Positions 9,504 to 59,691 of a stretch of 64,000 bases of DNA are shown here, in pieces. The notes below the pieces were generated by a model. It worked only from the letters and a program-made list of their open reading frames with translations, ran no database searches and was not told the DNA's origin. Made by a program: the position numbers and the translations under genes. The first letter of the stretch is position 1. Every line of letters begins with the position of its first letter. Source of the stretch: a virus; IMG/VR virus record IMGVR_UViG_3300032242_001941, positions 1 through 64,000 of that record; one strand, 5' to 3'.

Positions 9504-9955
9504 TGTGGTATAGTAAAGTTGCGTCAGATCTAGGAGCAATACCTGACTTTATTGCTTATTACGAGCGTGAGCTCGAAGATGCTAAACGCGATGTCAAAGT
9601 TGGTGGTCTTATTGAGAAAAATATCAAAGAGCTTCCAGGGATCACCGAACACAGATTTAATCAACTGCAAGAAATTGAAGCAATTTTAAATCATCTTAAT
9701 ATACAGTTACGCAAAATACGTCGACGACACTTTCAGAAGTATTTAGAAGGGTATGCTCGTGCCCTAACTAGCCGTGATGCTGAAAAGTATGTTGATGGTG
9801 AGGACGAAGTCATTGACTTTGAAACAATTATTAATGAAGTAGCATTACTACGTAATCGCTGGTTGGGCATTATGAAAGGGCTGGATAGCAAAAGTTGGAT
9901 GTCGGGACATATTGTTCGCTTACGCACAGCCGGAATGGAAGATATACAAGTATGA
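9503..9955 (+). CDS. uvsY: Recombination mediator UvsY-like
   Basis: Helical 150 aa with DAEKYVDGEDEV, adjacent to uvsX. Confidence 0.75.
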   Translation: MWYSKVASDLGAIPDFIAYYERELEDAKRDVKVGGLIEKNIKELPGITEHRFNQLQEIEAILNHLNIQLRKIRRRHFQKYLEGYARALTSRDAEKYVDGEDEVIDFETIINEVALLRNRWLGIMKGLDSKSWMSGHIVRLRTAGMEDIQV

Positions 9956-10707
9956 AATTTGAAAAAACCGCAGATAGTCATCAGCACAGCCTTGAGACAT
10001 TAGATCAATTGCTTGCATACAGTGATTTTATGTATAGTATTGCTACCTTGGTAGATCTTGGATGTGGGCTTGGCGACGATCTTAAATGGTGGGCCACACG
10101 TACTACCGATGATGAACCTCCGGTTCCTTTAGACATAAAATGTACCGGCGTAGATCTAATTGATCATCTTCCAGTAACAAAAAGTCACAATAATATATCT
10201 TACCAAAAACGTGATTTTGAAAGTTTTATTGAAGCCCCTGAGAAAGGATTTGACATCTTATGGTGTCACGATAGTTTTCAATTTGCCTTAAACCCAGTGC
10301 AGACTCTTGGTCGTTGGTGGGATATTGCTAGCCCTGGAGGCATGTTATACATTTGTGTTCCCATCACGCAACGCATACATCGTCGTCAATTGGATTATTC
10401 GTTGCCTTCTGGCAGTTATTATCACTATAGCATGGTAAGTCTGATGTACATGTTGGCCACTGCTGGATGGGATTGTCGCAGTGGATTTTTTAAACAATCG
10501 CCTAATGATAATTGGCTACATGCTATAGTGTACAAAAGTGATCAAGAACCCCTAGATCCAAAAACTGCTTCTTGGTACAGGCTGTCCGAACTTAAACTAC
10601 TGCCCGAATCAGCCGACGCTAGTATAAACCTACACGGCTACTTAGAACAGCAAGACCTTATAGTTCCTTGGATTGATCACAGCCTAATGAGTATGGCCGT
10701 ACGATAA
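9952..10707 (+). CDS. Class I SAM-dependent methyltransferase
   Basis: LVDLGCGLG motif I, FDILWCHD, PGGML; start taken at the ATGA overlap with the uvsY stop. Confidence 0.8.
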   Translation: MKFEKTADSHQHSLETLDQLLAYSDFMYSIATLVDLGCGLGDDLKWWATRTTDDEPPVPLDIKCTGVDLIDHLPVTKSHNNISYQKRDFESFIEAPEKGFDILWCHDSFQFALNPVQTLGRWWDIASPGGMLYICVPITQRIHRRQLDYSLPSGSYYHYSMVSLMYMLATAGWDCRSGFFKQSPNDNWLHAIVYKSDQEPLDPKTASWYRLSELKLLPESADASINLHGYLEQQDLIVPWIDHSLMSMAVR

Positions 10708-45429: not shown

Positions 45430-46899
45430 ATGCTGTTTGGATATTTAACTTTATTTACTGCACTGATATTATCATTATCGGCGGCAGTCTACTCTATACT
45501 TGGGTTAACGGCCATCTTTGCCGCGGCCTTTTGGCCTATTGTGGTGCTTGGCGGCAGTCTTGAAATTGGCAAGATTGTAACAACCTTGTGGTTACACAAG
45601 TATTGGACACGAGCTGAACTACAATATAAACTTTATCTATGTAGTGCTGTGGTTATTCTCATGGTCCTGACCAGCATGGGGGTATTTGGTTTCTTAAGTA
45701 AAGCACACTTGGACCAAGCAGTGCCGTCGGGGGATATACAAGCGCAAGTACAAATATTTGACGACAAAATCCAAACACAAAAAGACAATATTAAAACAGC
45801 CAGGGCGGCCTTGACGCAGATGGATACGGCTGTAGATCAAACCATGGGCCGTAGCCTGGATGAAAAAGGTGCCGACAAAGCAGTTGCTATTCGTCGTAGT
45901 CAAGCTCGTGAGCGCACCGCCCTGCAAAACGATATTGCAAAAGCGCAAACAGAAATTACCCGGTTACAAGAACAACGGGCTCCTATTGCCAGTCAAGCTC
46001 GCCAGGTAGAAGCCGAAGTTGGACCTATCAAATATATTGCCGCATTGATCTACGGCGATAATCCTGAAGCCAATGTGCTAGAAAAGGCAGTTCGTTGGGT
46101 TATTATTCTTATTGTTATTGTATTTGATCCCTTGGCGCTTACGCTATTGTTAGCCGCTACCAAAACCTTTGAATGGGAACGTGGTATTAATATCTTTGTT
46201 CCTAAAAACAAAGATGAAGAAGAACTTATTGTTCCTGTCAAAGAGGAATCTGAACCCGAGGATGATATTCCAATATTTGATCGTGAAGAAATTCCTTTAG
46301 AAGAAGAACTTGAGCCGGAGCAGGGACTACACCCACTTGCACATATTGAAATACCCGAAATCCATCCAGATGATCGACTGCATCTTTTGTCTAAAAGATT
46401 TTTTATGTCAGGACATCCGGGCGTAGATGAAAGAACGTTTCATGCATTGCATCAAGAAGGCGAAATAGATTGTTTACCTTGGCACAAAGCAGAGCACATC
46501 AATTCTTTGCCAATCAGTGCCGACGAACGTCAACAATTACTTGACCGTTTTGTAAACATTCCTGCACATGTTACCACGGATCAATTTGGTCTAGAAGCAG
46601 ATAATGTAGACAATAAAATAACCGGGGAAGTTCGTGGATTTGGAACACAGTTCCCGGCTAGTGCCAATAAAGGTGATATGTTTTTGCGTGTTGATCGATT
46701 GCCCAGTGCCTTGTATAAATTCAATGGCAATATCTGGATTGAAGTAGATAAAACCTTAAGCGATCAACATGCCTATGATGATGCCTATATTGATCACCTT
46801 ATTGAAAAAATTGACACCGGAGAATACGATCCAGAGTTGTTGAGTAATGCCGAGCGTGACAGTATTGAAAGACGATTACAGAATACACGACACGTATAA
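45430..46899 (+). CDS. Multi-pass membrane protein with coiled-coil domain
   Basis: Three N-terminal TMs, coiled coil, IVFDPLA TM, acidic cytoplasmic tail. Confidence 0.8.
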   Translation: MLFGYLTLFTALILSLSAAVYSILGLTAIFAAAFWPIVVLGGSLEIGKIVTTLWLHKYWTRAELQYKLYLCSAVVILMVLTSMGVFGFLSKAHLDQAVPSGDIQAQVQIFDDKIQTQKDNIKTARAALTQMDTAVDQTMGRSLDEKGADKAVAIRRSQARERTALQNDIAKAQTEITRLQEQRAPIASQARQVEAEVGPIKYIAALIYGDNPEANVLEKAVRWVIILIVIVFDPLALTLLLAATKTFEWERGINIFVPKNKDEEELIVPVKEESEPEDDIPIFDREEIPLEEELEPEQGLHPLAHIEIPEIHPDDRLHLLSKRFFMSGHPGVDERTFHALHQEGEIDCLPWHKAEHINSLPISADERQQLLDRFVNIPAHVTTDQFGLEADNVDNKITGEVRGFGTQFPASANKGDMFLRVDRLPSALYKFNGNIWIEVDKTLSDQHAYDDAYIDHLIEKIDTGEYDPELLSNAERDSIERRLQNTRHV

Positions 46900-48095
46900 T
46901 GGAACCAACTATTGAACATTGTAGTTTTTGTGATAAACACAAGGATCGTGTTGGCAAATTAATTGTAAGTCATAAAGTAGCTATTTGTAATGAATGCGTG
47001 GATCTTTGTGGCAGTTTGCTCAAAGACAAAACGGTAATTCAAAAAAAATCAGAACCACCTACCGTCTTAGATCCTAGAGACATAAGAGATTATCTGGATC
47101 TGCACGTGGTTGGACAAGACGAGGCTAAAGTTGTTCTCAGCGTGGCCATTGCCAATCATTATAAACGTATCAGTCGTAATGATACAACTATTACCAAAGC
47201 CAACATACTCATGATTGGACCCACGGGCACAGGAAAAACACTTATGGCTCGTAGTGTAGCCCAGTATCTTGACGTACCTTTTGTAATTGCTGATGCCACT
47301 TGTTTAACTGAAGCTGGCTATGTAGGCGATGATGTAGAAAGTATGATTACAAGACTATACACCGCTGCCGACGGCAATGTTGAACGTTGCCAACGTGGTA
47401 TTGTGTTCCTAGACGAAATTGACAAGATTGCTAGAAAAAGTGAAAGTGCCACAGTGTCACGTGATGTATCGGGCGAAGGTGTTCAACAGGCCTTGTTAAA
47501 ATTAGTTGAAGGCACAAGGTGTCGTATTCCTGCACAAGGAACTAAAAAAAATAACAATACAGAAACAGTAGAGATTGACACTACCAACATATTGTTTATT
47601 GTAGGTGGTGCCTTTGTGGGTATGGATCGTATCGTAAAAAATCGTGTACAAGGTACAGCTATGGGATTTGGCGCAGAAATTACATCACCTGACACTGAAG
47701 CAACTGATCCAGTGACTCCAGAAGATTTGGTCCGGTACGGAATGATTCCTGAGTTTGTGGGTAGATTTAGCAGTTATGTAAATTTACACGCTTTAAATAA
47801 AACTCAATTGATTAGTATACTGACTGAAATACAGGGAAATTTTGTGGGTCAATATCAATGGTTATTTGATCAGGATAGCGTGGCCTTAGAATTTGACTCT
47901 GAAAGTTTAGATTTAATAGCAGAACGAACACTAAAGACACGAACAGGAGCCCGCGGCCTACACAGCGAACTAGAGCGTGTGCTGTTACCACACATGTTTG
48001 ATCTTCCTAGGTATCGTAAACAAGATATAGTCCAGGTCACAATCAATAAAACCCAGGTAAATACTCCTATGACACTAATACAAGAAAATTTATGA
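46899..48095 (+). CDS. clpX: ClpX ATPase
   Basis: CSFC..CNEC zinc-binding domain, [44 protein letters not shown] loop, TGARGL. Confidence 0.95.
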
Positions 48096-48313
48096 GAGAG
48101 TACAAAAGATCAGTTTACATTACCGATGGCAATGTAGAAAAGGCTCTGCGTAAATTTAAGAAAAAAATACAGGAATCTGGCTTATTGGAAGAACTCCGTG
48201 AGCGGGAAACCTACGAAAAACCAACTACCGAACGTAAGCGTAAGAAAGGTGCAGCCCGAGCACGTCTACGCAAACAAATCCGCAGTCAACAACTTCCAAA
48301 AAAACTCTACTAG
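48092..48313 (+). CDS. rpsU: Ribosomal protein bS21
   Basis: [12 protein letters not shown]...[17 protein letters not shown]-type pattern. Confidence 0.92.
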
Positions 48314-48314
48314 T

Positions 48315-48557
48315 GTGTTTATAGAATTTAAAGTAACAACAGAAAATCCGTTGTTTCTTACTTCACACATCCTACATATGGCCGAAGCAGAAATTAAGAA
48401 TTGGGCCCAGGTAAACGAGATACCTTACACTTACAAATATTATAAAAATACTTTCAGGGTAGCATTTAACGAAGAAAAACATTATACTGTTTTTCGTTTA
48501 ACCTGGGCAATAGATTTGCCCCATATTGAATATAAACTTATTGACAGGAAGTGGTAA
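48315..48557 (+). CDS. Small hypothetical protein
   Basis: GTG start just after rpsU; ends VAF.....TVFRLTW. Confidence 0.6.
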   Translation: MFIEFKVTTENPLFLTSHILHMAEAEIKNWAQVNEIPYTYKYYKNTFRVAFNEEKHYTVFRLTWAIDLPHIEYKLIDRKW

Positions 48558-48571
48558 ATCTGTTATAAATA
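48541..48571 (+). promoter_or_regulatory. Composite sigma70 / late promoter
   Basis: TTGACA-17-TATAAA overlapping TATAAATA. Confidence 0.7.
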
Positions 48572-48574
48572 AAC

Positions 48575-48635
48575 ATGTAGATGCCCAGCTGGGGTCTATA
48601 TTAAAACTTGCTTATTTTTAAGGAGAATTTATATG
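48575..48635 (+). promoter_or_regulatory. ROSE-like RNA thermometer leader, copy 1, ahead of an 8-codon ORF
   Basis: 5' hairpin ATGTAGA...TCTATAT, then CTTGCTT pairing with AAGGAG (bulged G); ATG 48633. Confidence 0.65.
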
Positions 48636-48703
48636 TCAAAGCACACCTTTCTGACCTAGCGTCAACTCCCCTTACAATTTAAACATTCAACCACTCTTAG
48701 TTG

Positions 48704-48732
48704 TTGACACAATCACCTATGTGTGTTATAAT
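48704..48732 (+). promoter_or_regulatory. sigma70 consensus promoter for groES-groEL
   Basis: TTGACA-17-TATAAT with TG extension. Confidence 0.85.
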
Positions 48733-48774
48733 CTATTGTTGTGGTATTATCATTTACATTTAAAAGGAGTATTA

Positions 48775-49062
48775 ATGAATCTAAAACCTACTAGAGATCG
48801 TATTGTTATACGTTTACTCGAAGCAGAAACTCAAACTAAATCTGGAATCTTTATCCCAGATGCCGCAGTTGAAAAACCAAACCAGGGCGAAGTATTGGCC
48901 ACAGGTGGCGGCCGCATCACAGAAGACGGCACCGTGATCCCAATGGAAGTTAAAACTGGTGATCGTGTACTGTTTGGCAAACACGCTGGCACACCGATCA
49001 AAGTTGACGGCGAAGAATATCACATCCTCAAAGAAGATGATGTAATGGCAATTGTAGAATAA
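48775..49062 (+). CDS. groES: Co-chaperonin GroES
   Basis: LKPTRDRIV, TKSGIFIPD, G.VLA.G.G, VLFGK..G, ILKEDDVMAIVE; AAGGAG SD. Confidence 0.96.
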   Translation: MNLKPTRDRIVIRLLEAETQTKSGIFIPDAAVEKPNQGEVLATGGGRITEDGTVIPMEVKTGDRVLFGKHAGTPIKVDGEEYHILKEDDVMAIVE

Positions 49063-50703
<1,641 letters not shown>

Positions 50704-50719
50704 TTTAGCGTTATAAATA

Positions 50720-50787
50720 ATAGTGTGGATGCCGATGGTCGGGTCCACACTATATGTCACTTGCTTAATTTAAAGGAGAAAACAATG
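50720..50787 (+). promoter_or_regulatory. ROSE-like RNA thermometer leader, copy 2, ahead of hsp20
   Basis: ATAGTGTGGA...TCCACACTAT hairpin, then CTTGCTT/AAGGAG; TATAAATA at 50712; ATG 50785. Confidence 0.75.
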
Positions 50788-51231
50788 ACAAGACTCACAA
50801 CTCTGGACCTTAGTCCATTCTATCGTAACTCAATCGGTGTAGACAAATTATTTGATCGTATGATGCATCAAATTGATACAGCGGCCGCATCAACTACAAA
50901 CTATCCACCTTACAACATTGTAAAAACTGGCGAGAACACCTACGAAATTCAAGTAGCCGTTGCTGGATTTACCGAAGGTGAAGTTACTGTAAACGTCAAT
51001 GAAGGTCAATTAATCATCTCAGGTGAAAAGCTGTCTACAGATTTGCCCGAAGGACACATATATGAACACCAAGGCATCAGTGCTCGTCGTTTTATACGCA
51101 CATTTACCTTGGCCGACTATGTAGAAGTAACCGATGCTCAAAGTCAGGATGGTATTCTGACTGTTAGCTTAGAGCGTCAAGTTCCTGAGGCACTTCTGCC
51201 GAAGACTATTGCGATCACTTACACAAAATAG
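50785..51231 (+). CDS. Small heat-shock protein (IbpA/Hsp20)
   Basis: NYPPYNI, AVAGF, HQGISARRF.RTFTLA, DGILTVSLER.VPE. Confidence 0.95.
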   Translation: MTRLTTLDLSPFYRNSIGVDKLFDRMMHQIDTAAASTTNYPPYNIVKTGENTYEIQVAVAGFTEGEVTVNVNEGQLIISGEKLSTDLPEGHIYEHQGISARRFIRTFTLADYVEVTDAQSQDGILTVSLERQVPEALLPKTIAITYTK

Positions 51232-51290
51232 TATAATATAGTAAATACAGTGGAGGGCACAGTGCTCTCCACTACAATAAAGGATTGGAT

Positions 51291-51599
51291 ATGTCACAAG
51301 CAGGAACTGTAACAAAAACACAAATTAATCAAGGTCTTGCCGAACCTCCTATGTTTAAAATTATCTATCTTAATGATAATGCCACACCAATGGAATTTGT
51401 AATTGATACGTTAATGGATTCATTTAATTATAGTTCAGAAACAGCTGAAAAAATTACCATGGACATTCACGAAGCCGGAAGTGCTGTGGTTGCTGTATTG
51501 CCTTATGAAATTGCCGAACAAAAAGGTATTGAAGTTACAGTGCAAGCCCGAAACAACAACTATCCTTTACAAGTCAAGCTAGAACCCGAAACAATTTAA
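51291..51599 (+). CDS. clpS: ClpS adaptor
   Basis: PPMFKIIYLNDNATPMEFV, IHEAGSAVV, YEIAEQK, YPL; own promoter 51209-51237. Confidence 0.92.
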   Translation: MSQAGTVTKTQINQGLAEPPMFKIIYLNDNATPMEFVIDTLMDSFNYSSETAEKITMDIHEAGSAVVAVLPYEIAEQKGIEVTVQARNNNYPLQVKLEPETI

Positions 51600-52387
51600 A
51601 AGTCAATTTCAATTCGACGAGGATAAAACACTCGCTGACACCAGTCGGTGTTGCCACGTCCCCTAGGATTGGAAATATATCTTATTCCTCCTAGGTTTTG
51701 ATCTACAGGCCTGTGATAGTGTCCAAAGCACCAGGTATGAATTTTTTGTTCAGTATCCTCGTCAATGGTGCGAGAAATATGACTGTTCCCCATGCCGTTA
51801 AATCTCCAGGTGTTGGCCAGATCAGGATCGTGTGCAATAACCCATGGTGCAGGAACGGTGTGACTAACCACAACAATGGCACCCACTTCCATATGGGTTT
51901 GTAATTTACGAACACTGTTCATCATATAAGATGCATCGTTGTAGGCCACGCCCATGATGTTTGTGGCGGTTGAATTATCAATACCAAAATGATCTTGTGT
52001 ATGTTGTATGCTAGCATCTACGCTTATGCTAGAATCAAAATCGTAGGTCCACCAAGCGTTGGTACCTAACAGAGCTACTCCGTTGACTATGATCACATTA
52101 TCCTGCATATAAACCACATTTTTTATAGATTTGATATCTTTAGCAAGGGCTCGATAACTAGCACCCAAATCGTCAAGATAATCTTTATGTTCTTCGTTAC
52201 CGTCGATATAAAAAACACCTCCAGGATAACATTGACCAAGGTGAGCCAGGGTGTCTAATAAACGTTGCCGGTCACGGGCTACATCACCGGCTACTACACA
52301 GTAAGGAGCCGTGGCTTGACTAGACCAATCAAAGTCGTTCCAAGTTTCAACGTGGAGGTCAGAAATTAAATCAAAAGCAAAAGTCAT
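51596..52387 (-). CDS. Calcineurin-like metallophosphoesterase
   Basis: SDLH, AGD, GNEEH, VSH.VP, FGHYH, NPRG. Confidence 0.88.
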   Translation of the reverse strand: MTFAFDLISDLHVETWNDFDWSSQATAPYCVVAGDVARDRQRLLDTLAHLGQCYPGGVFYIDGNEEHKDYLDDLGASYRALAKDIKSIKNVVYMQDNVIIVNGVALLGTNAWWTYDFDSSISVDASIQHTQDHFGIDNSTATNIMGVAYNDASYMMNSVRKLQTHMEVGAIVVVSHTVPAPWVIAHDPDLANTWRFNGMGNSHISRTIDEDTEQKIHTWCFGHYHRPVDQNLGGIRYISNPRGRGNTDWCQRVFYPRRIEIDF

Positions 52388-52411: not shown

Positions 52412-52762
52412 ATGAACATAATATTTAAAACCAATGCAACAAATATAGATGAAAAATATACAGTTTTAGACTTAGATACCTTTAGTTTACCTGACGGATC
52501 TTTACATACTGCCTGTTGTGTAGTTGAAAACATACCCGTTGCTGAATTTCCAATAATCACCCGGTTAAAAGAATTACACGTTAATCTTATAAGTAATTAT
52601 GGTAAACGCAATTGGAACTATTGCGAACAGGCCATTGAGCAACTTATGGGCAAATGGGGAGGCGAAGTAGACTCATTTTATCAAGAGTTAAACGCCCGTA
52701 TACAAAAACTTAAAACCCAAAATTTAGACGATTCCTGGAGCCCTGTTATACCAAAAGCCTAA
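52412..52762 (+). CDS. Stand-alone homologue of the cyclase C-terminal region
   Basis: Aligns by eye with the last ~120 aa of 57640..59691. Confidence 0.7.
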   Translation: MNIIFKTNATNIDEKYTVLDLDTFSLPDGSLHTACCVVENIPVAEFPIITRLKELHVNLISNYGKRNWNYCEQAIEQLMGKWGGEVDSFYQELNARIQKLKTQNLDDSWSPVIPKA

Positions 52763-52820: not shown

Positions 52821-53102
52821 ATGAATGAAGTTTTTAAGATCATTGGAGATCTAGGATTTCCAGTAGCAGCCGCACTTGCAGGCGGTTATTTTGTATATCT
52901 CACAATCAAACTGTTATTAGCTGGCGTACTGTCAGCTGTTAAACAGATGGCTGGAATTATCACAGCCTTAGACAATCGTGTTAAAACTATGAATCACGAC
53001 GTTATCCGCATTGATACCGTTGTGAGTAATGCTTTGGGCTTACGCCCAGACGTAGAGCGCATAAGCCGCGCAGACGGTAAAAACGATGCAAGGAGAGACT
53101 GA
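52821..53102 (+). CDS. Small membrane protein, paralogue of 53665
   Basis: II.DLGFP TM then DNRVKTMNHDVIRID; AAGGAG SD. Confidence 0.8.
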   Translation: MNEVFKIIGDLGFPVAAALAGGYFVYLTIKLLLAGVLSAVKQMAGIITALDNRVKTMNHDVIRIDTVVSNALGLRPDVERISRADGKNDARRD

Positions 53103-53562: not shown

Positions 53563-53665
53563 TCCATATAAATTACCACCGCATCAAATTTGGACTGATT
53601 GGGATCTAGCCAAGTTTGCTCTGATAGCATTTGTGGTCGGCATTGCGGTAGGAGCAATATTATAA
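53549..53665 (+). CDS. Small membrane protein (38 aa, not in ORF track)
   Basis: MKKHNPYKLPPHQIWTDWDLAKFALIAFVVGIAVGAIL; GGAG SD. Confidence 0.6.
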   Translation: MKKHNPYKLPPHQIWTDWDLAKFALIAFVVGIAVGAIL

Positions 53666-53949
53666 TGGGCGGCCTAGCAGAAATTATCAGCAAGTACGGA
53701 TTCCCAATGGTCATGGCAGTTGGCATGGGCTTTATCATACGCATGGTCTGGGAATGGTGTACCAAGGAAATCAAACCAGTTATCAATGATGCCAACGCAG
53801 TTCTTATTGGTCTTATTGATCGCATCCGTATGTTGGACAATGATTTGATTCGGTTGAATCAAAAAGTTAATACTGTGTTGCATCTACGTGGCAAAAGTAT
53901 TGATCACGAGCGTGTAGAAGCTGAACAACAGATCAACGAAAAATCGTAA
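53665..53949 (+). CDS. Small membrane protein, paralogue of 52821
   Basis: IISKYGFP TM then DRIRMLDNDLIRLN; AGGAG SD. Confidence 0.8.
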   Translation: MGGLAEIISKYGFPMVMAVGMGFIIRMVWEWCTKEIKPVINDANAVLIGLIDRIRMLDNDLIRLNQKVNTVLHLRGKSIDHERVEAEQQINEKS

Positions 53950-54002: not shown

Positions 54003-54494
54003 ATGAAAAAAATAATAATAATAACTCTCTTAGCTTCTGCGCCTGCGTTTGTCACGGCTGCAGAACTACAACACTATTTTAGTAGCCCGGCCTTTAGCGG
54101 CGTTGGATACAGTAGCCATGTCTTGACTTTACAACAGCTAGAAACTCAACAAAAAGAAAAAAATAAATTGGCCGCAGATGCTATTGCAGCCAAAGCAGCC
54201 GCAGATGCTGCAAATACTCCACAGGCTAGATTTTTAGCCAACATTGAAAGTAGAGTCTATGCTCAACTAGCCAAACAAATTACCGATAGTTTGTTTGGTA
54301 CAGACGGTGTGCCTAGTTGTAAAGCAGTAAATCCTTACAGTCAGTGCGGATCTGTAAACATAGCGGGCAATGATATCACTTGGCGCCTGGGCGACCCAGC
54401 AAACGCCAGCGAAAAAGGCATGTTAGTAATCAACATTGCTGGTGCCACCGGCAACGTTCAAATGATGGTGCCATCTGGAACCTTTGCTTTTTAA
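54003..54494 (+). CDS. csgF: Curli assembly protein CsgF-like
   Basis: Signal peptide then ELQHYFSSPAFSG.G (cf. CsgF F.F.NP.FGG) and F..NIESR.YAQLAKQI...LFG. Confidence 0.75.
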   Translation: MKKIIIITLLASAPAFVTAAELQHYFSSPAFSGVGYSSHVLTLQQLETQQKEKNKLAADAIAAKAAADAANTPQARFLANIESRVYAQLAKQITDSLFGTDGVPSCKAVNPYSQCGSVNIAGNDITWRLGDPANASEKGMLVINIAGATGNVQMMVPSGTFAF

Positions 54495-54503
54495 GAAAAA
54501 TAT

Positions 54504-55319
54504 ATGAAACATACCGTAATTTCCTTGCTTGCAATTGCTTTATTAGGTGGATGTGCCATTGGCAGTGGTATCCGCGAACAGCTGACAAACAAGCAGTTTG
54601 ACGAACCAGTGATAGAAAAAAGTATTGTATTAGCACAGCCAAAAAATCAACTAGCACCACCGGCAGATGGACCTATTGCTGTGGCTGTGTACGGATTCCA
54701 AGATAAAACAGGGCAACGCAAAAGTCAACTTGCTGTGGCCAGTTTAAGCAGTGCTGTAACACAAGGCGGCGAAAGTTACTTGATTAAAGCCTTACAAGAT
54801 GTAGGCGATGGCCGCTGGTTCACTGTGGTAGAAAGAGTTGGGCTAGACAACCTAATCAAAGAACGACAAATGATTCGCCAGGGTCGCGAACAGTATCAAG
54901 GACGTGATGCTAAACCGTTACCGCCAATGGTATTTGCCGGAATGATTGTGGAAGGTGCTATTGTGGGCTATGATTCAAATACTCTTACAGGTGGCGCCGG
55001 TATGCGTATCTTTGGTATTGGCGGCCAAACACAGTATCAAAGTGATACAGTCACGATTAGTTTGAGAACAGTCAGTGTTCTTACTGGAGAAGTATTGACC
55101 ACAGTTACAGTTACAAAAACTGTGTTGAGTTACATGGATAAATTTACAGTATTGAGATTTATCAATGACGGAACTAACTCCTTAGAATCAGAAATAGGAG
55201 GTAGTATAAACGAAAGTATTAACCGAGCAACAAGCGCAGCCATACAAGCCGCAGTGGTTGATACGATTCGTGAAGGTGCTCGTAAAGGACACTGGAATTT
55301 TAAAGAAGTAAAAAAATAA
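54504..55319 (+). CDS. csgG: Curli secretion pore CsgG-like lipoprotein
   Basis: Lipobox LGGC, VAVYGFQDKTGQRK, SSAVTQG, WF.VVER.GLDNL.KERQ.IR, GYDSN..TGG.G. Confidence 0.92.
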   Translation: MKHTVISLLAIALLGGCAIGSGIREQLTNKQFDEPVIEKSIVLAQPKNQLAPPADGPIAVAVYGFQDKTGQRKSQLAVASLSSAVTQGGESYLIKALQDVGDGRWFTVVERVGLDNLIKERQMIRQGREQYQGRDAKPLPPMVFAGMIVEGAIVGYDSNTLTGGAGMRIFGIGGQTQYQSDTVTISLRTVSVLTGEVLTTVTVTKTVLSYMDKFTVLRFINDGTNSLESEIGGSINESINRATSAAIQAAVVDTIREGARKGHWNFKEVKK

Positions 55320-55369
55320 CAATAAAAAATAGGAGCTTAGATTGGGGATAACCCAACTTTGAACAAACA

Positions 55370-56167
55370 ATGAAAACAAACAAATTAAATACAGCCTATA
55401 CAATATTTGCTGTGTTGGCATTTGTTTCATTAAATGCAGCCGCACAAAATGCGGCCACTGGACCTAACAAGGTTTACCTGGAACAGATTGGTAGCACTAA
55501 TACCATCACAGTTCAACAGGTTGGCGGCACTAACAATGTTGGCGGCACCGGCGGCAATGTAACAGTAGATACCAATGGCGTAACTACTTTTACACCCGAT
55601 GCCCCTGGCAGTACTAACTATGCTACAATCACGGGTGCTAACAATGTGGTTGGACTTAGTCAGACTGGTAGTAACAACACGGCTCAGTACAATATCACTG
55701 GCAGTAACAATACCTATAACAGTACTGTGGCTGGCAATAACAATCAAACTCGTTTGATCATGGGTGGTGCCAATGCCACAGCCAATTACAATACTGTAAC
55801 AGAAACAGTTACTGGCAGTAATAACTTGATATTACAAAACGTTCAAGGCAGTAATGTGGTCAGTGGTATTGGAATTGTTGGCAGTACCAACCAAGTGACT
55901 ACTGATTTATTAAGTAACCGCGGAAGTTCTAATATACAAATCACTGGCAGTACCAACGTGATCAATGCTGAACAGACGGGCGGTGCTGGTGCCAATGGGC
56001 ACATATTGATTAATAATGTGATAGGCGACTATAACAGTATTACCACCCAGCAACAGGGTTCTATTGATACAACAATCGATCTTAAGACCACAGGTAGTTT
56101 CAATACCGTCACGGTACGGTCCAGCGACTCGGCCATTGTCAATTCAAGAACTGCTGTAGCAAGGTAA
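55370..56167 (+). CDS. Curlin-like repeat protein
   Basis: Signal peptide; repeated (Q/I)xGxxN strands; Asn/Thr/Gly-rich. Confidence 0.75.
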   Translation: MKTNKLNTAYTIFAVLAFVSLNAAAQNAATGPNKVYLEQIGSTNTITVQQVGGTNNVGGTGGNVTVDTNGVTTFTPDAPGSTNYATITGANNVVGLSQTGSNNTAQYNITGSNNTYNSTVAGNNNQTRLIMGGANATANYNTVTETVTGSNNLILQNVQGSNVVSGIGIVGSTNQVTTDLLSNRGSSNIQITGSTNVINAEQTGGAGANGHILINNVIGDYNSITTQQQGSIDTTIDLKTTGSFNTVTVRSSDSAIVNSRTAVAR

Positions 56168-56168
56168 T

Positions 56169-57269
56169 ATGCAGAAACTAATCACAGCCCTTTGCGTTAT
56201 GGTTGTATGTAACGCCTGGGCTGGCATTGGCACGGTTTCAGAACACAAAGGTACAGCCTGCGAGATCACACGAGACAAAAATAAATTATCTGGGCACAAA
56301 GATGCCATAGTTGAAAGTATGGACACATATACCACCGGTGCATGTGTCAGCAACATTACATTTAAAGATGACACAAAGGTTCGCATAACTGAGAACAGTC
56401 GCTTGCTTATTGATGATTTTGTATTTGATCCCAAGGCCAGCGATGCCGGCAAACTGGCTCTTAAAGTGAGCGCAGGCACTGTGCGCTATGCGTCGGGCCA
56501 GATTGCTAAAAATAGTCCACAAAAAGTAAATATTCAAACGCCAACAGCCACAGTGGCAGTTCGTGGTACTGATTTTACCATGACCGTTGACGAAGCTGGA
56601 CAAAGTCTGATAATGTTAATACCTAGTTGTAAAGATATCAACGAAGTTAAACAATATGAATTAGAAGAGAATAGATGCAAAGTTGGACGTATCGAAGTAA
56701 GCACTCTTGCTGGGTCAGTGGTCTTAGACCAAGCATTTGAAGCAACCTATGTTATGAGTGCTCTAATGGCACCAACTCCACCTATTGTTGTCAACACTGT
56801 TGAAAGTAAAATTAATAATAATCTTATTATTGTTAAACCTGTTGAAGTTCAACGAGCTATTAAAGAAGCAACAAAAACCAAACAAGAACAAGAACTTGAC
56901 GACATCGAAGCCGACGCGGCTCGACGACTAGCACAGGCTGTGGCCAAATCCGCCGAAGCCATTGAGGAAGCTCGTGTTTCCAAGTTTGTTGACCTTGCCA
57001 AACGGTCTGGGTGTAATTCTGCTACCAGTGTCTGTGTGATATGGGATAGACCGTCTGAAACAGAAATGATCAGTCGTGGACGTGGTATTGCATTCCGCCT
57101 AACAGAAAATGAGCATTATGCCGAAGTCAAGACACTTGGGTATGTATCCAACACCACAATTAACATTACACATAATGATATGCCATCATCGATCACTATC
57201 GGCGATGGCTCTCCTGGTGGAACTATTGTAACTATTAAACAAAACAATGGAGTATTAAAGTCTAAGTAG
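56169..57269 (+). CDS. Secreted FecR-domain protein
   Basis: Signal peptide; ITF.DDT.V.ITENS.L.IDDFVFDP, G.VRY.SG.IAK, TPTATVAVRGTDF. Confidence 0.85.
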   Translation: MQKLITALCVMVVCNAWAGIGTVSEHKGTACEITRDKNKLSGHKDAIVESMDTYTTGACVSNITFKDDTKVRITENSRLLIDDFVFDPKASDAGKLALKVSAGTVRYASGQIAKNSPQKVNIQTPTATVAVRGTDFTMTVDEAGQSLIMLIPSCKDINEVKQYELEENRCKVGRIEVSTLAGSVVLDQAFEATYVMSALMAPTPPIVVNTVESKINNNLIIVKPVEVQRAIKEATKTKQEQELDDIEADAARRLAQAVAKSAEAIEEARVSKFVDLAKRSGCNSATSVCVIWDRPSETEMISRGRGIAFRLTENEHYAEVKTLGYVSNTTINITHNDMPSSITIGDGSPGGTIVTIKQNNGVLKSK

Positions 57270-57422: not shown

Positions 57423-57647
57423 ATGACTGACTTTTTTAAACCCGATCCAAGAATTACTGACCCTGCACTAAGAGATTTAGAAAAAAAAGTGCATTGGCTT
57501 ATGTCACAAATTTATGCCGGAAGCTGGGCGCAGATGTGTAGTGATGCAGGGCTCGATTGTAATACCGTGTATAATACATTTCCAGATAATTTTGATATAA
57601 ACAATATTAGACCAGACGCAGAAGAAGTTCAAAATAACGATGCTTAA
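57423..57647 (+). CDS. Hypothetical protein
   Basis: GGAG SD; overlaps the cyclase start. Confidence 0.65.
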   Translation: MTDFFKPDPRITDPALRDLEKKVHWLMSQIYAGSWAQMCSDAGLDCNTVYNTFPDNFDINNIRPDAEEVQNNDA

Positions 57648-59691
57648 AAAAATCTTAACAAGTCCGTGGACTGCTCTATTGACGCTGGCCTTAGTAGTGG
57701 GGTTACGGGTAGCAGACCCTACATTTGTTGAAAGCGTTCGTCTACGCTATTTTGATACGCTTATAACTAGTAAGCCTGCAGAAGTTATAGGTGTTAGTGT
57801 TGTAAACATTGATGAAAAGGCATTAGAAAAATATGGACAATTTCCTTTCTCCCGCGATCAGTACGCTGCCATCGTCCGGGATTTATATCGCCGCAATGCT
57901 GGTCTTGTTGTTTTTAACATCCTTACTCCTGATCGCGATCGCATGGGGCATGATGCAGAATACATCCAAGCCCTTCGCCAGTATCCAACAATTCTCCCTA
58001 ACATTGGGTCGCAAACTTCTCGTAATACTCCAAAAGCTCCTGGCTCAGTAGTCATAGGCCCATTTGGTCTAGATGCCTTTGTTACCTATCCTGGTATTAT
58101 TGCTAACCAACCTGCTATTGAAAATGCCGCAGTCGGTGTTGGTATTGTAAATACCTTGCCAGAAGTAGACGGTGTCGTTCGTCGCATGCCAATGGTAGTA
58201 GCATATGATGGCAAGTTGTACCCGAGCCTTGCTATGGAAACACTTCGAGTAGCTGGCGCCGACACCACTTTCCAAGTGAAGATCAACGAAACAGGCGTTG
58301 AGAAAATGCGCATTCCAAAGTTTGGAGCTATTACAACAGATTCATTGAGCCGTATTTGGGTTGACTGGTCACTGGTACCAAGTAAATATGGTTTAACGGA
58401 CTTGCCAAAAGATTTTGAAGGTGAAATTGTTATTGTTGGTGTATCAGCACAAGGACTTGCAAACCCTGTAGCTACAAGCCTTGGCGAAATGCTACCACAA
58501 GATTTACAAGCAAGTGTATTGGGTACTGTAATTGCCAATAGAGATCGTCCGGCAATTACTCGCCCAGATTGGGCCGATGGTGCAGAAATTGTATTTGTCG
58601 TTACGGCAGGTATTGTATTGTTATTTTTATCAAGGTGGGTTTATGTTGGACTTTGTTCATCTGTTTTTATACTCGGCGGGAGTATATTGCTGTCTCGTTG
58701 GGCTTATGGAAATTACGCTTGGCTTGTGGACGCGACTATTCCAGTCGTTGGCCTTGGCCTTGTGCTTCTTCATGCTTATGGTGTTAAGTTCGTAAGTGAG
58801 TTTTTACAAAAGCAAGCAATCAAGAAACAGTTTGCTGGCTACTGCTCCAAAGAAGTAGTGGAGCTATTGCAAAAAGATCCAGACCTAATCAAACGCGGTG
58901 TGCGCAAAGATGTCAGTGTCATGTTCTCAGACCTACGTGGCTTTACTCCTATCGGTGAACACTATGGTGATGATGTTGCTGGACTTGGAAAATATATGAA
59001 CGGTTATATGGATAGCATTAGTTGTCCTATTCTAGATAACAAAGGTATGATTATTAAGTATGTAGGTGATGCATCGATGCACATACACGGCGCTCCTATT
59101 GAAGATCCTAATCACGCACATACTATTGTTAAGGTAGGACTTGAGATGTTAGATGCTGTGGATGAATACACTAAACTAATGGAAGCACAAGGATTACCTC
59201 CTGCCGCAATGGGTTGGGGTTGTAACTCAGGTATTGGCTTTATTGGTGAAATGGGAAGCACAGATAGACACAGCTATGACATCTTAGGTGACATGGTTTC
59301 AACAGCTGCACGACTAGAAGCACGTTGTAAGGCCTATGGTGTGTTATGTATTATTGGTGCTGAAACATACAATAGAACTCGAGACGATTTCTTTTACTTG
59401 TTACTAGACAACTTGCAACCAAAAGGCAAAACAGTAGCAGACTTAATCTATACAGTATTACGTACTAAAGGTGTAGACTACAGTAAAGATAAGGCACAAC
59501 ACGAAAAAATGCATGACTTGTACCGAGCTAAAAAGTTTGATGAAGCCGCCGCTATGTGTACTAAAATGAAAGGCACCTTTGGCGGGCAGATGGACAAGTA
59601 CTACAAGATATGGATTGAACGTTGCGAGTTTATGAAAGAACAAAATTTACCAGATAACTGGAATGGCGAATTTGTGGCACACGAAAAATAG
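57640..59691 (+). CDS. CHASE2-domain class III adenylate/guanylate cyclase
   Basis: N-terminal TM, IDEKAL..YGQFPFSR and DGVVRR.P (CHASE2), three TMs, FSDLRGFT, KYVGDA, GEMGS..R..Y..LGD.V..AARLE. Confidence 0.93.
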   Translation: MLKKILTSPWTALLTLALVVGLRVADPTFVESVRLRYFDTLITSKPAEVIGVSVVNIDEKALEKYGQFPFSRDQYAAIVRDLYRRNAGLVVFNILTPDRDRMGHDAEYIQALRQYPTILPNIGSQTSRNTPKAPGSVVIGPFGLDAFVTYPGIIANQPAIENAAVGVGIVNTLPEVDGVVRRMPMVVAYDGKLYPSLAMETLRVAGADTTFQVKINETGVEKMRIPKFGAITTDSLSRIWVDWSLVPSKYGLTDLPKDFEGEIVIVGVSAQGLANPVATSLGEMLPQDLQASVLGTVIANRDRPAITRPDWADGAEIVFVVTAGIVLLFLSRWVYVGLCSSVFILGGSILLSRWAYGNYAWLVDATIPVVGLGLVLLHAYGVKFVSEFLQKQAIKKQFAGYCSKEVVELLQKDPDLIKRGVRKDVSVMFSDLRGFTPIGEHYGDDVAGLGKYMNGYMDSISCPILDNKGMIIKYVGDASMHIHGAPIEDPNHAHTIVKVGLEMLDAVDEYTKLMEAQGLPPAAMGWGCNSGIGFIGEMGSTDRHSYDILGDMVSTAARLEARCKAYGVLCIIGAETYNRTRDDFFYLLLDNLQPKGKTVADLIYTVLRTKGVDYSKDKAQHEKMHDLYRAKKFDEAAAMCTKMKGTFGGQMDKYYKIWIERCEFMKEQNLPDNWNGEFVAHEK

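What the first reader, a model, noticed from the sequence alone, without database searches (positions are those of the whole stretch)
52412..52762. Stand-alone paralogue of the cyclase C-terminal domain
The 116-aa ORF aligns by eye with the end of the cyclase: IIF...DEKYTVLDLDTF vs IIG...RDDFFYLLLDNL, and NYGKRNWNYCEQAIEQLMGKWGGEVDSFYQELNARIQKLKTQNLDDSWSPV vs LYRAKKFDEAAAMCTKMKGTFGGQMDKYYKIWIERCEFMKEQNLPDNWNGE. It lacks the catalytic core and is divergently paired with the phosphoesterase (24-bp gap). It may be a dominant-negative regulator or adaptor of the phage or host cyclase (inference).
Basis: partly seen in the sequence, partly recalled or inferred. Interest (0 to 1): 0.7.

Follow-up and report, generated by a model that had tools for sequence, protein, structure and literature searches.

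The report
Free-standing cyclase tail protein in phage
A small, well-conserved protein of a giant marine or freshwater phage descends from the last ~115 residues of an adenylate/guanylate cyclase, but related phages with no cyclase keep it too, so it is probably not simply a regulator of the phage's own cyclase.

Summary
ORF 52412-52762 (+) encodes a real 116-aa protein. It belongs to a large family of stand-alone phage proteins of about 100-130 aa (413 close homologues; 294 clusters at 50% identity; dN/dS 0.10-0.22). The family profile matches the extreme C-terminus of CHASE2 class III cyclases and nothing else: all 69 longer hits are such cyclases (E down to 5e-10 in 5.8 billion proteins). 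hhalign gives E 1.7e-14, pairing ORF residues 3-115 with cyclase 570-680. The match spans the last strand-helix-hairpin of the catalytic domain and a three-helix, TPR-like tail. Bacterial cyclases carry the same tail (hhalign E 2.6e-11), so the fragment came from a cyclase, not the reverse.

The gene's constant neighbour is hsp20-clpS (83 of 84 loci). The phosphoesterase is adjacent in 56 of 84. Three 93-99% complete phage genomes have the ORF but no cyclase domain, and phage Melnitz has the cyclase without the ORF.

Best reading: a domesticated, non-catalytic cyclase end-piece acting as a protein-binding module whose partner is not, or not only, the phage cyclase. The mechanism is inferred, not shown. 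The scan noted this same stretch in overlapping windows of the same genome, not on other DNA.

The parts
52412..52762 (+). Stand-alone 116-aa protein (P0001), member of an unnamed phage family derived from a cyclase C-terminus
   Evidence: ORF and translation. 413 close homologues, nearly all 116 aa. 294 clusters at 50% identity. dN/dS 0.10-0.22. Profile match to cyclase ends.
52418..52537 (+). ORF residues 3-42: counterpart of the last strand, short helix and beta-hairpin of the cyclase catalytic domain. The KGK turn is not conserved.
   Evidence: hhalign pairs ORF 3-38 with cyclase 570-608. AF2 model has strands 14-25 and 31-42. Solved cyclase domains align to cyclase model residues up to about 210, i.e. 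residue 610.
52538..52759 (+). ORF residues 43-116: three helices, TPR-like, counterpart of the cyclase tail. H56, Y63, Y90, R96 and W109 are shared with the cyclase.
   Evidence: C-half hhalign E 7e-12. Helices 43-64, 68-78 and 85-101. Cyclase helices 615-629, 633-642 and 646-665. Shared invariant residues.
57640..59691 (+). CHASE2 class III adenylate/guanylate cyclase (P0002, 683 aa)
   Evidence: Pfam CHASE2 E 6.7e-36 and Guanylate_cyc E 1.5e-13. phrog_35576. 43% identical to the Melnitz cyclase.
59347..59688 (+). Cyclase residues 570-683, the stretch homologous to the stand-alone ORF
   Evidence: Tail pLDDT 83-96 in the AF2 model.
51285..51599 (+). clpS, the constant upstream neighbour of the ORF across the phage lineage
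   Evidence: NCBIfam ClpS E 2.6e-22. clpS lies upstream in 83 of 84 loci. The clpS stop overlaps the ORF start in L067.
51596..52387 (-). Divergent metallophosphoesterase, a frequent but not constant neighbour
   Evidence: phrog_1649 E 2.2e-23. TIGR03729 49.5 bits, below its cut-off. Adjacent in 56 of 84 loci.
54003..57269 (+). csgF-like, csgG, curlin-repeat and FecR-domain genes. With the cyclase they form a known, mobile phage module.
   Evidence: Same module annotated in Melnitz. Described in PMC9599517 and PMC9004378. Present in only 9-11 of 36 loci that have at least 9 kb downstream.

Best explanation
Shown: ORF 52412-52762 is a real, cytoplasmic, non-catalytic protein under purifying selection. 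It descends from the last ~115 residues of a class III (CHASE2-type) nucleotidyl cyclase. That stretch comprises the final strand, short helix and beta-hairpin of the catalytic domain, plus a three-helix, single-TPR-like tail that bacterial cyclases also carry at their very C-terminus. It is a positionally conserved gene of a lineage of ~330-350 kb T4-like phages and lies just after hsp20-clpS. The curli-FecR-cyclase module downstream is accessory and comes and goes.

Inferred: having lost everything needed for catalysis, the protein keeps only the surface of the cyclase end-piece. It most likely acts as a small protein-binding module that mimics this end-piece. It would engage whatever normally contacts that end-piece: another cyclase subunit, or a partner of the tail. 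Because cyclase-less phages keep it intact, that target is probably a host protein, for instance a host class III cyclase or its partner, or a phage protein other than the cyclase. The phage cyclase would be at most one client. The very conserved N-terminal strand (M-x-I-I-F-G/K) is not self-structured in the model. It is a candidate for strand addition to a partner's sheet.
For: Reality and selection.

Homology to cyclase ends only. All 69 longer hits are CHASE2 plus Guanylate_cyc proteins of about 680 aa, E down to 5.2e-10. hhalign gives E 1.7e-14. Both halves are collinear. The own record gives two hits only. The Melnitz cyclase tail is hit at E 4.9e-13.

Direction of descent. The family profile against the C-termini of 17 Verrucomicrobiae cyclases gives prob 97.3%, E 2.6e-11, 115 columns. 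BLASTP alignments of those cyclases with the phage cyclase run to the last residue of both proteins. The ORF's N-terminal 40 residues align to a part of the universal catalytic fold, which solved structures cover up to residue ~610.

Secondary structure follows the same order in both models.

Independence from the phage cyclase: and the remnant in L005/L006.

Synteny. The ORF family forms one clan with 97/87 support. The nearest clusters in the ESM Atlas are 88-98% viral.
Against: No interaction was tested. No multimer prediction or model coordinates were available, so the binding role is inference from loss of catalytic parts plus conservation. Most of the conserved residues shared with the cyclase could be fold-core rather than surface. 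The AF2 model is only moderate (pLDDT 72; residues 1-9 below 50). TPR likeness rests on the sequence pattern and on VIA Z values of 6.5 or less, which is within noise. The hosts are unknown, so whether they have class III cyclases is untested. The cyclase-less records are 93-99% complete, not closed genomes.
Confidence: 0.5

Rival explanations
1. One reading: a dedicated dominant-negative regulator or adaptor of the phage's own CHASE2 cyclase, which pairs with the cyclase through the shared end-piece.
For: The homology is restricted to the cyclase end. The ORF lies 5 kb upstream of the cyclase here. It lies directly upstream of csgF, within 300 bp, in 16 of 75 loci, at the head of the curli-FecR-cyclase module.
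Against: Three 93-99% complete genomes have the ORF and no PF00211 domain. The ORF is intact where the cyclase has been deleted to a 68-residue remnant. Melnitz has the tailed cyclase and no stand-alone copy. Only 9 of 36 loci with at least 9 kb downstream carry a cyclase. The ORF family is not nested among the phage cyclase tails.
Confidence: 0.17
2. A neofunctionalised small TPR-like protein that works with the phage proteostasis cluster (DnaK/GroEL/Hsp20/ClpS/ClpX), for instance as a co-chaperone or adaptor. In this model its cyclase ancestry is irrelevant to its present role.
For: hsp20-clpS lie immediately upstream in 83 of 84 loci. In L067 the clpS stop codon overlaps the ORF start, suggesting one operon. 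The weak fold matches are to TPR co-chaperone-like helices.
Against: Synteny in a conserved phage backbone does not show a functional link. Other genes are freely inserted between clpS and the ORF: the phosphoesterase on the opposite strand, or a cytidylyltransferase-like plus an exonuclease-like gene. The fold matches are within noise. The shared conserved polar residues (H, Y, R, W) argue that the ancestral surface or fold is retained.
Confidence: 0.18
3. A partner or regulator of the divergently transcribed metallophosphoesterase, for instance in a cyclic-nucleotide phosphodiesterase pair.
For: The two genes are 24 bp apart and head to head here, and adjacent in 56 of 84 loci. Some calcineurin-like phosphoesterases are cAMP phosphodiesterases (general knowledge).
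Against: The phosphoesterase is missing in 28 of 84 loci that still have the ORF. It matches only generic phosphoesterase models, below their cut-offs. L005 has a 620-bp insertion between the two genes.
Confidence: 0.05
4. A non-functional leftover of a partial gene duplication, or a chance similarity.
For: The pairwise identity is low (26% over 57 aa).
Against: The database-wide profile E-value is 5e-10, and every longer hit is a cyclase. There are 294 diverged clusters with conserved start, length and motifs. dN/dS is 0.10-0.22.
Confidence: 0.02

Closest known systems
C-terminal end-piece of bacterial and phage class III cyclases of the CHASE2 type (last hairpin of PF00211 plus an unnamed ~75-residue tail ending W-x-G-x...K)
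   Same: The profile match is collinear over the whole ORF: E 1.7e-14 to phage cyclases and E 2.6e-11 to Verrucomicrobiae cyclases. The order of two strands and three helices is the same. The conserved H, Y, (F/Y)Y, R and W-x-G positions are shared.
   Different: The ORF stands alone and has no CHASE2 sensor, membrane helices or catalytic core. The KGK turn of the hairpin is not conserved. It has its own hallmarks (N-W-x-x-C-E-x-A, G-x-W-N/G-G-E-L-D-S-F-Y). It forms a separate clan and evolves faster than the cyclase tails.
Phage curli (T8SS)-FecR-adenylate cyclase gene cluster of pelagiphages and Methylophilales phage Melnitz (PMC9599517, PMC9004378)
   Same: The window carries the same module (csgF, csgG, curlin repeat, FecR, CHASE2 cyclase), with the cyclase 43% identical to that of Melnitz.
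   Different: Those papers do not mention a stand-alone tail protein. Melnitz and HTVC008M lack it, and the HTVC008M cyclase ends right after the hairpin with no tail.
Single tetratricopeptide-like (TPR) motifs used as protein-binding units
   Same: The bacterial tail shows the TPR-like pattern Y-x-x-G-x-x-x-Y...A-x-x-x-F...P-x-D followed by a capping helix. The best, though weak, fold matches of helices 47-105 are TPR proteins such as SRP72, P58IPK, NrfG and BamD.
   Different: No Pfam TPR model matches. VIA Z is 6.5 or less, within the range seen for unrelated helical models. The helices are fused to a beta-hairpin.

Membership tests
Class III nucleotidyl cyclase catalytic domain (Pfam PF00211) | Match to the family model over the catalytic core, with the two metal-binding Asp residues, the substrate-specifying Lys/Asp and the Asn/Arg transition-state pair | tested here: not met
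   P0001 gives no Pfam hit, and no PF00211 hit appears among the 48 family members. The ORF aligns only to cyclase residues 570-608, downstream of all these residues.
Class III nucleotidyl cyclase catalytic domain (Pfam PF00211) | Conserved K-G-K turn of the last hairpin, which contacts the phosphates | tested here: not met
   K595 and G596 are invariant in the cyclases. The equivalent turn in the ORF family varies in length and sequence.
Cyclase C-terminal end-piece (hairpin plus tail) of CHASE2-type cyclases | Significant collinear profile similarity over the terminal ~115 residues | tested here: met
   hhalign E 1.7e-14 against phage cyclases and E 2.6e-11 against bacterial cyclases. hmmsearch E 5.2e-10 database-wide, with every longer hit a cyclase.
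Cyclase C-terminal end-piece (hairpin plus tail) of CHASE2-type cyclases | Same secondary-structure order: strand, strand, then three helices | tested here: met
   The ORF model has E14-25, E31-42, H43-64, H68-78 and H85-101. The cyclase model has E586-592, E601-606, H615-629, H633-642 and H646-665. The two models could not be superposed because no coordinates were available.
Cyclase C-terminal end-piece (hairpin plus tail) of CHASE2-type cyclases | Covalently attached to a cyclase catalytic domain | tested here: not met
   All 150 listed representatives are 67-144 aa. The ORF starts at the position of cyclase residue ~568.
TPR repeat proteins | Match to a TPR sequence model, or a clear fold match | tested here: inconclusive
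   No Pfam TPR hit. VIA-wide best Z is 6.5 over 57 residues, within noise. The TPR-like residue pattern is seen by eye in the bacterial tails.
Anti-phage defence or counter-defence families in PADLOC | Match to a PADLOC model | tested here: not met
   P0001 and the phosphoesterase give no hit. Only the cyclase core resembles PycC, E 1.9e-11.

The most novel reading that the evidence does not exclude
The protein is a phage-made decoy of the C-terminal module of host class III cyclases. By docking onto a host cyclase subunit, or onto the partner of its tail, it would switch off or redirect host cyclic-nucleotide signalling during infection. This could include cyclase-based anti-phage signalling of the Pycsar kind. 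It would explain why cyclase-less phages keep the gene.
Probability: 0.1. Interest if true: 0.8.

Novelty: new variant of a known kind. Interest (0 to 1): 0.45.

Why it matters
The tail that follows the catalytic domain in many bacterial class III cyclases has no described function and no counterpart in the solved cyclase structures compared here. The phage protein is a natural experiment: evolution cut that end-piece out and kept it under selection for a long time in hundreds of diverged phage lineages, with or without a cyclase. Finding its binding partner would show what the tail does in the enzymes. It could also reveal a new way for phages to interfere with cyclic-nucleotide signalling. 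In addition, the work gives an evolutionary origin to a large family of 'hypothetical proteins' of abundant aquatic jumbo phages that no Pfam model covers.

Tried and rejected
- Foldseek of the ORF model against the PDB found no match at E 0.001 or better. VIA-wide gave only generic helical or TPR-like rows, Z 6.5 or less.
- Pfam, PHROGs, NCBIfam and PADLOC gave no hit for the ORF. The profile search of PDB sequences gave nothing below E 0.48.
- megablast of 10 kb against the phage collection found no match. tblastn of the ORF against phages gave only E 3-7 hits, four of which fall on the Melnitz cyclase tail.
Gene contexts were taken from IMG/VR loci instead.
- Alignments A2 and A4 were too diverse for pattern scans in two calls.
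- Consensus promoter and terminator scans were not above chance. No TATAAATA late-promoter motif lies near the ORF.
- Sequencing runs: no RNA holder was listed, so there is no evidence on expression either way.
- A split-cyclase idea was considered, with the ORF supplying a missing end to a truncated cyclase. It was rejected: the HTVC008M cyclase lacks only the helical tail, keeps its hairpin, and that phage has no ORF homologue.
- The phosphoesterase as a specific cAMP phosphodiesterase was not supported. It matches only generic models, below their cut-offs.
- Literature searches found no report of a stand-alone cyclase tail protein.

Full report
**The thing itself.** The window is almost entirely + strand and phage-like. 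ORF 52412-52762 (+) encodes 116 aa (P0001) and has an AAGGA motif 6 nt before the ATG. A metallophosphoesterase gene (51596-52387, - strand; phrog_1649 E 2.2e-23) starts 24 bp away, head to head. The cyclase (57640-59691, P0002, 683 aa) has CHASE2 (E 6.7e-36) and Guanylate_cyc (E 1.5e-13) domains. It is 43% identical to the cyclase of Methylophilales phage Melnitz and 35% to that of Pelagibacter phage HTVC008M, both T4-like Kyanoviridae. Between the ORF and the cyclase lie two paralogous small membrane proteins (phrog_18771), then csgF-like, csgG, curlin-repeat and FecR genes. The csgF-to-cyclase part of this arrangement is annotated in Melnitz and described in the literature (PMC9004378; PMC9599517).

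**Is the ORF a gene?** Yes.
- The word-indexed search found 413 homologues, nearly all 116 aa, on contigs up to 348 kb.
- A full HMMER scan of 1.84 billion representatives found 294 clusters at 50% identity. All 150 listed are 67-144 aa, mostly around 115-125 aa.
- Members down to 30% identity share a fixed start (M-x-I-I-F-G/K) and a common set of motifs.
- Where dS is not saturated, dN/dS among close relatives is 0.10-0.22.
- The nearest ESM Atlas clusters are 88-98% viral.
- No Pfam, PHROG, NCBIfam or PADLOC model covers the family.

**Is it homologous to the cyclase end?** Yes, strongly.
- Pairwise BLASTP gives 33.5 bits, E 1e-6.
- The family profile searched against proteins of 231-2000 aa returned 69 hits. 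Every one carries CHASE2 plus Guanylate_cyc domains, most are full length at about 680 aa, and E goes down to 5.2e-10 for a database of 5.8 billion.
- hhalign of the family (A2) against 24 phage cyclases (A3) gives prob 98.3%, E 1.7e-14, pairing ORF 3-115 with cyclase 570-680.
- The C half alone gives E 7e-12. The N half alone gives a weak E 5.8e-4, but at exactly the collinear place.
- In the window's own record the profile hits only the ORF and the cyclase end. In Melnitz it hits only the cyclase end, E 4.9e-13.

**What the homologous piece is.**
- An AF2 model of cyclase 401-683 (pLDDT 77; tail blocks 83-96) has strand 570-573, helix 574-580, hairpin 586-592/601-606, and helices 615-629, 633-642 and 646-665.
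- Solved cyclase domains (P. aeruginosa CyaB 3r5g at Z 20.7, Spirulina CyaC, Cya2 and others) align to model residues about 18-210, that is up to residue ~610.
- ORF residues 3-42 therefore correspond to the last ~40 residues of the universal catalytic fold. Residues 43-116 correspond to a tail that the solved cyclase structures compared here do not contain.
- The ORF's own model (pLDDT 72) has strands 14-25 and 31-42 and helices 43-64, 68-78 and 85-101, the same order. Residues 1-9 are of low confidence.
- All catalytic residues lie upstream of residue 570, and the KGK turn is not conserved in the ORF family. The protein cannot be a cyclase.

**Direction of descent.**
- Bacterial cyclases carry the same tail. 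In a sample of 61 genomes of the class around G016 (Verrucomicrobiae), many cyclases align with P0002 up to residues 676-683.
- BLASTP alignments of 18 of them with P0002 401-683 run, for most, to within 0-9 residues of the bacterial C-terminus.
- A profile of 17 such bacterial ends matches the phage stand-alone family at prob 97.3%, E 2.6e-11, over 115 columns including the hairpin.
- The bacterial tail has a TPR-like pattern followed by a helix and P-P-x-x-W-x-G-V...K.
- So the end-piece is an old part of bacterial cyclases, and the stand-alone gene is derived from a cyclase, not the reverse.
- In a maximum-likelihood tree of 78 ends, the ORF family is one clan (97/87) and the phage cyclase tails, all but one long-branched row (P0459), form another (98/95). 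The ORF clan has much longer terminal branches. This fits one old excision followed by faster evolution. The tree is short (124 columns) and its root is not established.
- L102 and its genome G017 are flagged unpublished. They entered only (a weak hit and one of two outgroup rows). No conclusion rests on them. The bacterial-tail claim rests, which use G016 and other genomes.

**Context across phages.** I fetched 88 IMG/VR loci with an ORF homologue at 35-74% identity; some are near-duplicates.
- clpS lies upstream in 83 of 84 loci that have enough upstream sequence, and hsp20 lies next to it in nearly every locus.
- The phosphoesterase is adjacent and divergent in 56 of 84.
- Of 36 loci with at least 9 kb downstream, 9 carry a cyclase and 11 carry csgG.
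- csgF follows within 300 bp in 16 of 75.
- Where the phosphoesterase is missing, the gap holds a cytidylyltransferase-like and an exonuclease-like gene, other genes, or nothing. In L067 the clpS stop overlaps the ORF start.

Whole-record searches gave these results.

| Record | Completeness | ORF homologue | Cyclase |
|---|---|---|---|
| G004 | 100%, terminal repeats | yes | yes |
| G001 | 93% | yes | no match to P0002 or PF00211 |
| G007 | 95% | yes | no match to P0002 or PF00211 |
| G008 | 99% | yes | no match to P0002 or PF00211 |

- In G001, G007 and G008 the only similarity to the cyclase is the ORF itself.
- In L005 and L006 a 122-aa ORF keeps the first 68 residues of the cyclase at 91% identity. 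The rest of the module is gone and the stand-alone ORF is intact.
- Conversely, Melnitz has the tailed cyclase and no stand-alone copy.
- The HTVC008M cyclase stops right after the hairpin, and that phage has no copy either.
- The ORF is thus part of the conserved backbone, and the curli-FecR-cyclase module is an accessory island next to it.

**How it most likely works.** Shown: descent from the cyclase end-piece, loss of all catalytic parts, long-term purifying selection, and independence from the presence of a phage cyclase. Inferred: the product is a small binding module that presents the surface of a cyclase end-piece. Its partner would be a host class III cyclase or tail-binding protein, or a phage protein other than the cyclase, with the phage cyclase at most one client. 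The N-terminal strand is invariant but not self-structured in the model. In the enzyme it sits in the catalytic domain's sheet. It is a candidate for strand addition to a partner.

I could not test any interaction. I therefore rate the mechanism at about 0.3, the descent and gene status at about 0.9, and the combined statement at 0.5. Rivals:
- Dedicated regulator of the phage cyclase, 0.17.
- Proteostasis-linked TPR-like adaptor, 0.18.
- Phosphoesterase partner, 0.05.
- Relic or chance similarity, 0.02.

**Novelty and verdict.** The curli-FecR-cyclase module is published. The stand-alone end-piece family is not mentioned in the papers found. I rate it a new variant of a known kind: a domesticated, non-catalytic fragment of a class III cyclase. 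Interest is moderate at 0.45. The evolutionary finding is clean and the puzzle is testable, but no function has been demonstrated.

Noticed in passing
window 59287-59313 (cyclase residues 550-558): The phage cyclase reads G-D-M-V-S-T-A-A-R where class III cyclases usually have G-D-x-V-N-x-A-x-R. The transition-state Asn is Ser here, and S554 is nearly invariant across the 24 aligned phage cyclases. HTVC008M and the Verrucomicrobiae enzymes keep Asn. The activity or specificity of this phage clade's enzyme may differ.
   Followed up: partly
L005:6895-7263 and L006:4012-4215: A 122-aa ORF begins with the first 68 residues of the cyclase at 91% identity, and the curli-FecR-cyclase module is missing. 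This looks like a recent deletion scar.
   Followed up: partly
window 52821-53102 and 53599-53949: Two paralogous small membrane proteins (phrog_18771, E 7.6e-32 and 4.1e-26) travel with the curli-cyclase module. In L033, L040, L045, L057 and L062 they lie inverted downstream of the cyclase, and they are absent from the cyclase-less loci.
   Followed up: partly
L105:2932-4767 (Pelagibacter phage HTVC008M): The HTVC008M CHASE2 cyclase (611 aa) ends a few residues after the K-V-K-G-K hairpin and has no helical tail. The tail is therefore dispensable in at least one phage enzyme.
   Followed up: yes
L092-L100 (genome contigs): Cyclases 44-70% identical to the phage enzyme sit on short contigs of MAGs labelled Chitinophagaceae, Rhodobacteraceae, Marivivens, Pirellulales, Verrucomicrobiaceae and Algoriphagus. 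This spread of labels suggests phage contigs binned into bacterial MAGs rather than bacterial genes.
   Followed up: no
L067:9702-10357: The clpS stop codon overlaps the start of the ORF homologue (9702-10004 and 10001-10357). This suggests translational coupling in the lineage that has no gene inserted between them.
   Followed up: no
window 45430-51599: A dense host-like proteostasis block precedes the ORF: clpX, a bS21-like small protein, groES, groEL, hsp20 and clpS. Related phages also have dnaK just upstream of hsp20 (L089, L037, L055).
   Followed up: no
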